A stretch of 63,478 nt of DNA from Rhynchobatus australiae (Eukaryota), in NCBI GenBank assembly GCA_034780895.1, contig JAUZTB010000068.1:21974019-22037496 (forward strand), given 5' to 3'. Every line of letters begins with the position of its first letter. The first letter of the stretch is position 1. Made by a program: the position numbers. Shown piece after piece: positions 49,201 through 52,200 of the stretch.

Positions 49201-52200
49201 GTACAAACAACTTTAAATATTTAGGTCGAATTCATGAAGCCAAACCGGGAGCAGGGTGGAGCTAAACAACGTTGGATGCTGCGAAAAAGAGGAACGAAGC
49301 GTTAGCAACTGCAATGCCAACATTGGCCATCACGCCGAGAGTTTCAGATGGAATGGATTACTAGGAAAACTCATTAATTCTACAACCGTTTGTAACACAC
49401 CCGGCGGTGGGGGTTGGTCTGGTTTGCTGCACCTCCTGACGAGGGACGGTGCCTTTGCCCCAAGGGCAGCATCAGCGGTGCAAAAGGATACAAACAGGTC
49501 GGGTTACCCACGTGCCCAGTTAGTGCGGGAAACAGGAGCACGAGCGTCGGCCACCAGGTGGAGCCGGCCGAGCCGGTGACATTGAGCGGCAGACTGGGGG
49601 CGCGCATGCGCGTCCGTCGCAGCGTGGGCTGGTGGGCGTGAGTGGGGGCGCGCCGGCTGCAGGGTGGGACTGAGCATGCGCTCCGTCTCCTGGCGGGAGG
49701 CGGGCACGCGCGCAGGGTGGGACTGAGCATGCGCGCCGGCTGCGGGCGGGAGGCAGGTACGCGCGCCGGCTGCAGGGTTGGACTGAGCATGCGCGCCCGC
49801 CGGTGGGTGGGGCCGAGCACGAGCGGGGCGGGTGGGCGTTTGAAGCGAGTGGCGGTTGGAGGCGTCGACGATGGAGGTGCAGGGGGAGAAGTGGGGCCGG
49901 AGCTGGAGGATCCGGCGGAGGAAGAGGAACCGAGAGAAGGGTTGCAAGGTCCGCAGCAGGATGAGGCACCAGAGCAGCCGGCGGGAAAAGGAGAGGCACC
50001 GCCGGGGCGGGAGGAAGAGGGAGGCCGCCGAGGGGCCGGCGGGCAGCGAGGAACCGGCGGGAGAGCCGCAGCCCGGGGAGGAGAGGGAGGGGACGGACGA
50101 GCAAGGAGAGGGGGAGCGCCGGGAGCCCGACCCGGAGAGCCTGGAGGGTCAGCGGGGGCTGAAGCAGAGAGAGCCAGGGACCGTCGACCCGCTGGGGCCA
50201 GAGGGTGAGAGGCCCCGAGCCCCGAGCTCAACGGCCCGGGAGGAGCGGTCAGCCGCCGAGGAGAAGGTGGCGGAGGGAGAGCAGCCGAGGAGGAGCCCAG
50301 GAGCGGAGGAGCCCGAGCAGCAGGAGGACCCAGCCCCGGCCGGGCCACCGGGAGCCGAGCTGGAGCACAGCGGGGAGGATGAGGAGAAGGACGAGGACCA
50401 TGTTGCCGCCGAGCTCGGCGGCGTGAAGGACGGGCAAGCGGCGGCAGAGGAGCCGGGGAGTCCGATGGGCCGACCGGGAGAGCGAGGAGAAGAGCTGGGC
50501 GTGTCGGAGGGCCAGCAGGAGCAACGAGGGGCAGAAGGACCGGAGCTGGACGAAGTGGGACGAGAGGCACCGAGTCTGAAGGAGCAAGAAGTGGAGGGGG
50601 GAAGAGAGGAGGTGGAAGTTTCAGAGGGCCAGGAGGGAGCTGGAGACGCACTGAAGGGAGAACAACAACCGGAGATCCCGGGGGAAATTAAAATACACCA
50701 AGGTGGAGCTGGAAAACTTAACAGCAGGACCCAGTTAAATCAGGACTGAGGAATTGTTCAGCAACAAGTGATTCCAAATATAAAGGGGGGGGGTAGATTA
50801 AGATAATATATATTTTCAATGTGTAATTTGATCTTGAATAAGTTTTAATCACAATTAGCACATGTTTTTGAAGAAGTATGTTCTTGTAGTTAGAATTCAT
50901 TTCACTTTTGTAATCGGTCTGATTTTCTACTGTTTGTGGTATTTAATGTGAGTTATTAGATCAATTAATAAAACTCATTTCGATGTTTTACATGCTTTGC
51001 AATAGACTAGTCAACGTTAGTCGTGCTGGAAGTCTGTTAGGGCATTAGCAGTTACCAGTAAAACAACGTGTAGCCTGCAGTTCTATCCGACTGCTAACAG
51101 CAATTTAGGAACATTATTATCCTAATTTCAATAAGCCAAGTCAGAATTTTCTAAAGGATATGATGTACATGGGGGAAATAAGCTTAAGCCTTAGCATGAA
51201 TATGTAGTGCATTACAGGAATTAGAAATTGTCCCTGCATTTTATTGAATTCTAATTCCTTGGAAGGACACCTCTCATTTACATCCTGGAGTATTGATGAT
51301 ACAATAATAAAACTATGTCATAAATACACAGTAGGGTATTAAAACCCTGTGGACCTGCGTGATAACAGAGAACTGGAGACACAAAAGATTGCAGATTGTG
51401 TAATCTGGAGTAAAAGAAAAACAAATGGCTGGAGGATCTCAGTAAATTGGGTATTATCTGTGGAGGCAAAGGGATGGTTGATATTTCAGGTCAAGACCCT
51501 GCAATTTGTTTTTTGACAACAGAGAACAGTGGGTATAGAGATTGTTGTCACTGCCTACTCAGAGGTGCAATAGATGGCCACAAATTTGGCAGCAGTTTAA
51601 AATATAAGTAGGCCAATTGGTCCTCCAAGGCTGCTCCACTATTCAACAGTATCAGATATTGTCTGAAGTTAATCGCCTGAAGAGAGGATAGTGAGATAGA
51701 ATAAGTGGTAGGTATCCACCAAAGGGGAAGGAGTATTGTATAAATTGTAACTTATTGGATACTAGAAAAATCAAGAGAAATGAGGTTATTGCAGGGAAGT
51801 TGCACTGAGGTAAAAGATCAGTCATGATTATGTTGAATGGCAGCACAGGAACAGGCGTACCTCTTTTGCTATTTCTTATGTTCCTATGATTGCAACCATG
51901 GCATCTGTAGTTTTCAGTTTTCCCTTTGGCCTAGGATACATTCTGTTAAGGCCAGATGTTCTATCTTTTTCACTTGGAGCTGTTCCTATATTTTAAATGC
52001 ATCTAAGTGTATTTCATTTTATTCTATCCATTTTTTCTACCATTGTGACATGCACACAGAACTCTATGGAAGTAAATGCAAAGTAATGATTCAATACCTC
52101 AAACATGCTCTCTGCCTTCACAATCTATTTCTTTTAATAGTTCCTAATTAGCCCCACCCTTAAACTGTTTTTACCATTTATGACATTTTGGTTTTATGTT

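What the first reader, a model, noticed from the sequence alone, without database searches (positions are those of the whole stretch)
49871..50972. Unassigned intronless gene for a disordered basic-then-acidic protein
Seen: a complete-looking unit of CpG-island promoter, ATG, 292 codons, stop, AT-rich trailer and AATAAA. After residue ~50 the protein is dominated by E/G/P/A with few aromatics. I recognise no family, and it is not NDUFS5, which follows AKIRIN1 in human. Inference: a lineage-specific or fast-evolving nuclear disordered protein, conceptually like histone/protamine-chaperone acidic tracts with an NLS-like head.
Basis: partly seen in the sequence, partly recalled or inferred. Interest (0 to 1): 0.7.

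Follow-up and report, generated by a model that had tools for sequence, protein, structure and literature searches.

The report
Unannotated orphan ORF downstream of akirin1
A 292-codon reading frame in its own CpG island just downstream of akirin1 in a ray-like genome has the three-base rhythm of real coding DNA but no detectable relative in the searched databases, so it is a candidate lineage-restricted disordered protein, still unproven.

Summary
ATG 49871 to TGA 50749 is a 292-codon frame inside a 1.3-kb CpG island, followed by an AT-rich trailer and AATAAA at 50967.

The frame's length alone is weak evidence. T is only 53 of 879 bases. 34 of 1000 shuffles give an equally long + strand frame, and the antisense strand is open for 435 codons.

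The 3-base periodicity is strong evidence. The 11 top-scoring of 1084 windows across the whole 63 kb all overlap this ORF. The phase is locked from about 49844 to 50702 and absent in the promoter.

No Pfam family, PDB chain, Rfam family or protein in two very large libraries matches. A control with akirin exon 1 found stingray akirin-1 at 98% identity, so close relatives are in the library.

The "basic head, acidic tail" is one purine-rich rhythm read in two phases: AGG/CGG/AAG codons, then GAG codons, slipping one base near 50020.

Best reading (about 0.45): an independent, lineage-restricted gene for a protein with an Arg-rich helix and an acidic disordered tail.

Rivals: a non-coding CpG-island transcript, the first exon of a larger gene, or an assembly frameshift.

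Expression, splicing and conservation could not be tested here.

The parts
49400..50700 (.). CpG island, G-rich on the + strand
   Evidence: GC 0.70 and CpG o/e 0.86 over 1301 bases. 200-base windows have GC 0.65-0.78. GC skew is +0.23 to +0.33 in the two 1-kb windows covering it and +0.35 over the ORF.
49602..49825 (+). Promoter-like tandem repeats carrying NRF1-type motifs: one full GCGCATGCGC at 49602-49611, then three GCATGCGC copies at 49674, 49727 and 49787
   Evidence: All 5 GCATGCGC matches in the 63-kb window lie here. Expected 0.16, and 0 of 100 shuffles reach 5. Repeat units of 53 and 30 nt. The consensus and half-site are taken from passages of PMC10810270. Binding was not tested.
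49841..49843 (+). In-frame upstream stop (TGA)
   Evidence: It lies nine codons before the ATG.
49871..50749 (+). 292-codon ORF including the stop
   Evidence: Start context acgATGG. It is the first ATG after the last GCATGCGC repeat. Periodicity chi-square p = 8e-13. GAG occurs 52 times in frame, against 18 and 19 in the other phases.
49871..50020 (+). Basic head, codons 1-50 (AGG/CGG/AAG-type codons)
   Evidence: 23 K/R, 5 D/E, pI 12. AlphaFold2 on the single sequence gives a helix at residues 6-46, with pLDDT block means 57, 74, 69, 72 and 70 for residues 1-50. A model trained on the body assigns 49844-50020 to a phase shifted by one base. Third-position C is 14 of 50 in this frame and 0 of 50 in the shifted frame.
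50021..50746 (+). Acidic, low-complexity body, codons 51-292
   Evidence: 67 D/E against 25 K/R, 59% E/G/P/A, no aromatics. pLDDT is 40-57 with no regular structure. All ten 90-nt windows starting at 50051-50681 (last ends 50770) have their A maximum at codon position 2.
50202..50210 (+). Donor-like site AGG|GTGAGA (exon would end at 50204, phase 1)
   Evidence: 7 of 9 matches to a recalled MAG|GTRAGT consensus. Coding-type periodicity continues in the same frame beyond it, so it is probably not the end of the coding region.
50700..50708 (+).
   Evidence: Sequence. By my count it matches 6 of 9 consensus positions, below the 7-of-9 listing threshold. The phase model ends its coding state exactly at 50702, but base composition also changes there.
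50967..50972 (+). AATAAA, 218 bases after the stop, followed by a T/GT-rich stretch
   Evidence: Not significant by itself: 46 on the + strand of the window.

Best explanation
This is an independent transcription unit lying downstream of akirin1, at least 12 kb past its last exon mapped here, in an elasmobranch genome closest to stingrays among annotated species.

Promoter (inferred): a TATA-less CpG-island promoter with a cluster of NRF1-type sites fires on the + strand.

Start (inferred): the first ATG after those sites, at 49871 in a strong context, opens a 292-codon frame. The frame is coding, or was until recently.

Product (predicted): a 32-kDa protein with an Arg/Lys-rich helix at residues 6-46 and a 240-residue acidic, Glu/Gly/Pro/Ala-rich disordered tail.

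Function (inferred from charge pattern only): the head carries nuclear or nucleolar targeting and nucleic-acid affinity. The tail binds basic partners or folds back on the head, giving a block polyampholyte.

Origin (inferred): the gene is restricted to a narrow lineage or evolves too fast to be recognised. Its two charge blocks come from one purine-rich, 3-periodic DNA read in two phases.

Shown here: the ORF, the island, the motif cluster, the periodicity and its phase, the lack of homologues, and the predicted helix plus disorder.

Not shown: transcription, translation, absence of splicing, localisation and function.
For: - Periodicity. The 3x4 chi-square gives p = 8e-13. The 11 best of 1084 300-nt windows in the 63-kb window all overlap the ORF. 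The 11 fully inside windows have median 40.0. The 1058 outside windows have median 5.2, 99th percentile 19.4 and maximum 31.1.
- Phase. Phase is constant through 50021-50702 and there is no signal in 49500-49843. No period-3 array was found: Tandem Repeats Finder gave only short arrays of period 7-16 inside the ORF. A repeat origin of the rhythm is therefore unlikely.
- Codon bias. Third positions are G/C-rich in both blocks in this frame: 47 of 50 in the head and 175 of 242 in the body.
- Start. Context acgATGG, a stop nine codons upstream, and the other four upstream ATGs all sit inside the GCATGCGC motifs.
- Promoter. 5 of 5 GCATGCGC matches in the window lie 77-269 bases upstream of the ATG, against 0.16 expected. 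This is the NRF1 consensus and half-site (PMC10810270, passages).
- Strand. Positive GC skew on the + strand fits + strand transcription, as in human class I CpG-island promoters (PMC3787257, passages). Extending this to elasmobranchs is inference.
- Other frames. No family matched in the antisense or other frames. The antisense 435-codon frame has no ATG ORF longer than 136 aa.
- ORF length. p is about 0.03 on the + strand.
Against: - No relative was found at any length. Yet the library holds annotated proteomes of close relatives: akirin exon 1 finds Hemitrygon/Hypanus akirin-1 at 98%, three shark species at 91-94% and Callorhinchus at 69%. If relatives have this gene, their annotations did not call it as a protein, or it has diverged beyond E<=1e-3.
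- The ORF length is barely beyond what 6% T allows.
- The sequence is of very low complexity (52 of 292 codons are GAG). Its periodicity is stronger than in the true GPCR coding region of the same window (19.7 at 6201-6500), which is atypical.
- In human, long GC-skew tracts usually run from a short first exon into intron 1. The long-skew class has a median first exon of 259 bp. The island and skew therefore do not argue for coding.
- AATAAA is uninformative.
- Two donor-like sites lie inside the ORF.
- There are no transcript, ribosome or peptide data.
Confidence: 0.45

Rival explanations
1. The unit is non-coding: a CpG-island promoter with the 5' exon and first intron of a lncRNA, or of a gene whose coding exons lie elsewhere. 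The ORF is a by-product of a T-poor, GC-skewed, purine-rich tract.
For: - T is 6% of the ORF. 680 of 1000 shuffles give a frame of at least 301 codons in one of six frames, and the antisense strand is open for 435 codons.
- The ORF ends where the island ends.
- No homologue or annotated counterpart appeared although related proteomes are in the library.
- Human GC-skew tracts longer than 700 bp usually exceed the first exon.
Against: - Phase-locked periodicity over about 860 bases is unmatched anywhere else in the window.
- There is no detectable period-3 repeat to explain it.
- The rhythm starts within 27 bases of a strong-context ATG and is absent from the equally G+C-rich promoter part.
Confidence: 0.27
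2. It is the first coding exon of a larger gene. The exon ends at AAG|GT (50702, phase 1) and splices to exons beyond or within the remaining 12.7 kb. The last 15 codons and the stop would then be intronic.
For: - The phase model leaves the coding state exactly at 50702|50703.
- A GT follows AAG there.
- CpG-island first exons with divergent disordered N-termini are common (general knowledge).
- Proteins longer than 2000 aa were outside the word-index searches.
Against: - By my count the donor matches only 6 of 9 consensus positions.
- Base composition changes at the same place, which alone could end the model's coding state.
- No Pfam domain was found in the 9 longest + strand open frames downstream that I tested (85-164 aa). 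The only row was GH131_N at E 0.091, below its cut-off.
- No calponin-homology-type or NDUFS5-type motif was found downstream.
- The representative search, which reads proteins of every length, found nothing.
Confidence: 0.15
3. The basic head is an artefact. A one-base assembly error, or a real recent frameshift, near 50020 puts the first 50 codons out of phase. The true product would be acidic throughout and would start elsewhere, for example at ATG 49729 or 49789 in the other frame.
For: - A model trained on the body assigns 49844-50020 to a phase shifted by one base.
- In that frame the head reads as E/P/G/A-rich sequence like the body.
- All five head-to-body direct repeats have spacings equal to 1 modulo 3: 124, 457, 355, 643 and 58.
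- The assembly is a draft with 22 N runs.
Against: - Arg/Lys codons AGG/CGG/AAG necessarily look like GAG shifted by one base, so the phase result does not discriminate.
- The shifted frame has 0 of 50 C-ending codons against 47 of 242 in the body (binomial p = 2e-5). The ATG frame has 14 of 50.
- The shifted-frame head is no more similar to the body than its own shuffles: protein 123 of 500 shuffles reach the score, DNA 263 of 500.
- The alternative ATGs lie inside the promoter motifs.
Confidence: 0.08

Closest known systems
Orphan or de novo proteins from GC-rich DNA, which tend to be intrinsically disordered (PMC5389847; I saw only the search listing and the start of the abstract)
   Same: No homologue, high GC, predicted disorder, Glu/Gly/Pro/Ala-rich, sited in a CpG island.
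   Different: At 292 codons it is long for a young ORF. Its age and origin are untested because no orthologous DNA could be examined.
Acidic nuclear chaperone-type disordered proteins with a basic targeting signal: prothymosin-alpha/parathymosin, nucleoplasmin acidic tracts (recalled, no call)
   Same: A long Glu/Asp-rich disordered tract combined with a short basic NLS-like cluster.
   Different: No sequence match to any Pfam family. The basic block here is N-terminal, about 50 residues long and predicted helical. Function is untested.
Basic domain plus acidic tail auto-inhibition, as in HMGB1 (recalled, no call)
   Same: Opposite charge blocks in one chain: net +18 in residues 1-50 and net -42 in residues 51-292.
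   Different: No HMG box or any other fold. This is an analogy of mechanism only.
Human class I GC-skewed CpG-island promoters (PMC3787257, passages read)
   Same: CpG island with strong positive GC skew downstream of the presumed start site, extending more than 700 bp.
   Different: Here the whole skewed tract is one open, 3-periodic frame. R-loops and methylation state were not tested, and the species is not human.
NDUFS5, the gene that follows AKIRIN1 in human
   Same: Same position and orientation relative to akirin1. NRF1-type promoter motifs would suit a respiratory-chain gene (inference).
   Different: One Cys, no twin Cx9C, no Pfam hit. No NDUFS5-like exon was seen downstream in the window.

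Membership tests
Protein-coding gene (generic) | Open frame with a start in good context and a stop | tested here: met
   Length significance is only about 0.03.
Protein-coding gene (generic) | Frame-locked 3-base periodicity and third-position bias | tested here: met
Protein-coding gene (generic) | Conservation of the frame in other species | not testable with these tools
   No eukaryotic genome or transcriptome collection was on hand. Protein libraries gave no hit.
Protein-coding gene (generic) | Transcription and translation | not testable with these tools
   No expression data.
CpG-island promoter | Over 200 bp with GC above 0.5 and CpG o/e above 0.6 (recalled criteria) | tested here: met
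   1301 bp, GC 0.70, o/e 0.86.
NRF1-regulated promoter | GCGCATGCGC consensus or TGCGC half-sites near the start site | tested here: met
   One full consensus plus three GCATGCGC copies. Motif taken from PMC10810270. Occupancy was not testable.
NDUFS5 | Twin Cx9C (CHCH-type) motifs, about 106 aa (recalled) | tested here: not met
   One Cys in 292 residues. No Pfam hit. No NDUFS5-like Cx9C frame past position 37000.
Prothymosin/parathymosin, nucleoplasmin, MARCKS and other named acidic-protein families | Match to the family profile | tested here: not met
   Pfam gave 0 families at E<=10. PDB gave 0 at E<=10.
Intronless (single-exon) gene | Transcript colinear with the genome from cap to poly(A) | not testable with these tools
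   Donor-like sites at 50204 and 50702. AATAAA at 50967 is not significant.
Intrinsically disordered protein | No confident fold predicted outside short elements | tested here: met
   AlphaFold2 on the single sequence: mean pLDDT 52.7, pTM 0.23, one helix at 6-46. A single-sequence model is weak evidence.

The most novel reading that the evidence does not exclude
This is a young gene restricted to rays (or to a narrower group) that was born inside a GC-skewed CpG island. One purine-rich, 3-periodic tract read in two phases created both an Arg-rich helical nuclear-targeting head and a Glu-rich tail. It would be a ready-made charge-block protein produced by a single phase slip and driven by an NRF1-type promoter.
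Probability: 0.18. Interest if true: 0.55.

Novelty: new member of a known kind. Interest (0 to 1): 0.3.

Why it matters
If it is real, it is a clean vertebrate example of how a CpG island's own composition (T-poor, G-rich on the sense strand) supplies a long open frame. It would also show how the three phases of GAG-type DNA (Glu, Arg, Gly) yield a protein with separated basic and acidic blocks. That bears on gene birth and on the origin of disordered nuclear proteins.

For annotation, it marks an unannotated unit beside akirin1 in an elasmobranch, and it is not the NDUFS5 expected from the human gene order.

If it is not real, it is a useful warning. In CpG islands with 6% T, a complete-looking unit of promoter, ATG, ORF and AATAAA arises fairly easily.

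Tried and rejected
Searches that found nothing:
- Pfam on the ORF: 0 families at E<=10.
- Pfam on the antisense and alternative frames: 0 families.
- PDB sequence search: 0 at E<=10.
- Rfam on 48500-52000: 0 at E<=1.
- ESM Atlas: no usable hit, and a recognition value of 752 is low.
- Word-index protein search, near and longer lengths: none.
- Full HMMER scan of 1.84 billion representatives: none.

Alternative gene identities tested:
- NDUFS5: a scan for Cx9C in all six frames past position 37000 found nothing NDUFS5-like.
- Spectraplakin (MACF1-type) first common exon: recalled short motifs were not found.
- Downstream exons: Pfam on 9 + strand open frames of 85-164 aa between 51837 and 60701 gave nothing above cut-off. 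Short exons would be missed.

Other tests:
- Head as a frame-shifted paralogue of the body: rejected as unproven. Similarity does not exceed shuffles, and third positions favour the ATG frame.
- Other copies of the island in the window: none. One 18-nt match only.
I sent separate open frames instead.

Not run:
- Fold search on the model, because the model is disordered and matches would be meaningless.
- A complex prediction, because no partner is proposed.

Searching rules followed:
- I searched akirin exon by exon (exon 1 only) and built no joined model of akirin or of this ORF with downstream exons.
- N runs were left as they are.
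Full report
WHAT IS THERE

The window is vertebrate DNA with 22 N runs. None lies between 47130 and 53390, so the feature is uninterrupted.

At 49871 an ATG in the context acgATGG opens a 292-codon frame that ends with TGA at 50747-50749. An in-frame TGA lies nine codons upstream.

The ORF sits in a 1.3-kb CpG island (49400-50700: GC 0.70, CpG o/e 0.86). The flanks have GC 0.26-0.42.

The + strand is strongly G-rich (GC skew +0.35 over the ORF) and almost free of T (53 of 879 bases).

AATAAA follows at 50967-50972.

SURROUNDINGS

- A rhodopsin-type receptor lies in two pieces on the + strand. 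Piece 5911-6510 matches 7tm_1 at 1.5e-21, profile positions 1-118. Piece 7046-7543 matches 7tm_1 at 4.3e-18, profile positions 125-260. It looks cannabinoid-receptor-like to me; that is recall, not a test.
- Akirin-1 follows on the + strand. Exon 1 is at 23472-23660, exon 2 runs from 31830, a short piece lies at 34262-34288, and a further exon is at 37122-37199.
- Exon 1 alone, searched as one exon, finds akirin-1 of Hemitrygon akajei / Hypanus sabinus at 98% identity. It finds Chiloscyllium punctatum at 94%, Scyliorhinus torazame at 92%, Pristiophorus japonicus at 91% (two entries) and Callorhinchus milii at 69%. In all, 231 of 275 candidates scored E<=1e-3.
- The window is therefore elasmobranch, closest to stingrays among annotated species, and not human.
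One akirin exon falls mostly in an N run and was left so.
- The island starts at least 12 kb after the last akirin exon I mapped.

IS THE ORF MORE THAN CHANCE?

Length alone is weak evidence.
- 34 of 1000 dinucleotide shuffles of 49500-50750 contain a + strand open frame of at least 301 codons.
- 680 of 1000 contain one in some frame.
- The antisense strand is open for 435 codons, though its longest ATG-started ORF is 136 aa.
- AATAAA occurs 46 times on the + strand, about one per 1.4 kb, so one within 218 bases of the stop means little.

The internal rhythm is strong evidence.
- Base composition differs by codon position with p = 8e-13.
- GAG occurs 52 times in frame, against 18 and 19 in the other two phases.
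- Among 1084 N-free 300-nt windows across the whole 63 kb, the 11 highest periodicity scores all overlap this ORF.
- The 11 windows fully inside the ORF have median 40.0. The 1058 outside windows have median 5.2, 99th percentile 19.4 and maximum 31.1, and none reaches the inside median.
- Tandem Repeats Finder reports no period-3 array, only short arrays of period 7-16 inside the ORF. Recent triplet-repeat expansion therefore does not explain the phase lock.
- A four-state phase model was trained on 50141-50680, so it is partly circular for the body but not for the head or flanks. It labels 49500-49843 non-coding, 49844-50020 coding in a phase shifted by one base, 50021-50702 coding in the ORF's phase, and 50703 onward non-coding.
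- The rhythm thus begins within 27 bases of the ATG, is absent from the equally G+C-rich promoter part, and continues unbroken across the strong donor-like AGG|GTGAGA at 50204|50205.

I take this as good intrinsic evidence that the tract is, or recently was, under coding constraint.

THE BASIC-THEN-ACIDIC PATTERN

- Residues 1-50 carry 23 K/R and 5 D/E. Residues 51-292 carry 25 K/R and 67 D/E, are 59% E/G/P/A, and have no aromatic residue.
- At the DNA level both blocks are the same purine-rich 3-periodic sequence. The head uses AGG/CGG/AAG codons and the body uses GAG codons. The rhythm therefore slips by one base near 50020.
- Read one base over, the head gives E/P/G/A-rich sequence that looks like the body. 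All five head-to-body direct repeats have spacings equal to 1 modulo 3.
- This could mean a frameshift, either evolutionary or an assembly error. But Arg codons of this type necessarily mimic shifted GAG.
- Two tests favour the ATG frame. Third positions in the shifted frame have 0 of 50 C against 47 of 242 in the body (p = 2e-5), while the ATG frame has 14 of 50. The shifted head is also no more similar to the body than its own shuffles: 123 of 500 protein shuffles and 263 of 500 codon shuffles reach the observed score.
- I therefore keep the ATG frame as the best reading. The head's reality rests on the base count near 50020.

PROMOTER

- All five GCATGCGC matches in the window lie at 49602-49794, against 0.16 expected. 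None of 100 shuffles reaches five.
- One is the full palindrome GCGCATGCGC. The other three sit in 53- and 30-nt tandem units.
- This is the NRF1 consensus with its TGCGC half-site (PMC10810270, passages read).
- The four upstream ATGs are all inside these motifs, so 49871 is the first ATG beyond them.
- In human promoters, positive GC skew marks the transcribed direction of class I CpG-island promoters. There the long-skew class (over 700 bp) has a median first exon of only 259 bp, so skew by itself does not imply coding (PMC3787257, passages read).

RELATIVES

None was found.
- Pfam: 0 families at E<=10.
- PDB: 0 at E<=10.
- Rfam on 48500-52000: 0 at E<=1.
- ESM Atlas: no usable hit.
- Word-index search of 5.8 billion proteins: 5295 candidates of 160-511 aa, none at E<=1e-3. 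The 8000 best candidates of 512-2000 aa gave none at E<=0.01.
- Full HMMER scan of 1.84 billion representatives of all lengths: 0 at E<=1e-3.
- The akirin control shows that stingray, shark and chimaera proteomes are in the library.

So either relatives lack the gene, or their annotations do not call it as a protein, or it has diverged beyond recognition. A protein over 2000 aa carrying this as a species-specific N-terminus would escape these searches.

No NDUFS5-like Cx9C frame, calponin-homology-type motif or Pfam domain appears in the 12.7 kb downstream. Short exons would be missed.

PRODUCT AND LIKELY MODE OF ACTION

- AlphaFold2 without an alignment gives mean pLDDT 52.7 and pTM 0.23. It predicts one helix at residues 6-46 (block means 57-74) and no other regular structure.
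- By inspection and recalled consensus, the head has NLS-like clusters (RRRKR, RKR). This was not tested by a tool.
- My working mechanism is inferred from charge alone. An Arg-rich helical head gives nuclear or nucleolar import and nucleic-acid affinity. A long acidic tail engages basic proteins or masks the head. This works like prothymosin or nucleoplasmin acidic tracts, or like the HMGB1 tail.
- It is not a member of those families, because no profile matches.

VERDICT

| Reading | Confidence |
|---|---|
| Independent, lineage-restricted coding unit | about 0.45 |
| Non-coding CpG-island transcript with a composition-driven ORF | about 0.27 |
| First exon of a larger gene spliced at 50702 | about 0.15 |
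| Assembly or recent frameshift making the basic head spurious | about 0.08 |

It is a new member of a known kind (orphan, GC-rich, disordered ORFs; PMC5389847, of which I saw the listing and abstract start only). Interest is modest until transcripts and orthologous DNA are examined.

A search for papers holding akirin1, synteny and shark together found none.

No chondrichthyan genome or transcriptome was available here, so synteny, dN/dS and splicing remain unchecked.

Noticed in passing
window 5911-6510 and 7046-7543, + strand: A rhodopsin-family receptor lies in two pieces in different frames, separated by about 530 bases that include an N run. The pieces match 7tm_1 profile positions 1-118 and 125-260. 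It looks cannabinoid-receptor-like to me (recall). This could be an intron, an insertion or an assembly problem.
   Followed up: partly
window 23472-23660, 31830-31970, 34262-34288, 37122-37199, + strand: Akirin-1 exons were mapped with a stingray akirin-1 protein. One exon is mostly hidden by an N run and the last short exon was not located. Akirin has its own CpG island at 23000-24000 (GC 0.61).
   Followed up: partly
window 49383-50687, - strand: A 435-codon open frame (stop to stop) lies antisense to the ORF. It is Pro/Leu/Ser/Ala-rich, its longest ATG-started ORF is 136 aa, and it has no Pfam match. It is a mirror effect of the T-poor sense strand.
   Followed up: yes
window 21274-21594 (+), 60372-60701 (+), 35302-35646 (-), 35925-36161 (-): Repeat-like open frames, two of which share an FF(S/T)QRV motif. 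They remind me of LINE-type retroelement tails of cartilaginous fishes (recall). Pfam found no family above its cut-off for the three frames tested (21274-21594, 60372-60701, 35302-35646); 35925-36161 was not tested.
   Followed up: partly
window 16001-16400 and 27301-28100: These have the highest 3-base periodicity outside the ORF (chi-square up to 31.1 and 29.9). The first contains a duplicated ~24-base stretch seen by eye in the printed sequence. They were not identified.
   Followed up: no
whole window: AATAAA and its complement are over-represented: 125 matches against 88.8 expected, and 0 of 100 shuffles reach 125.
   Followed up: no
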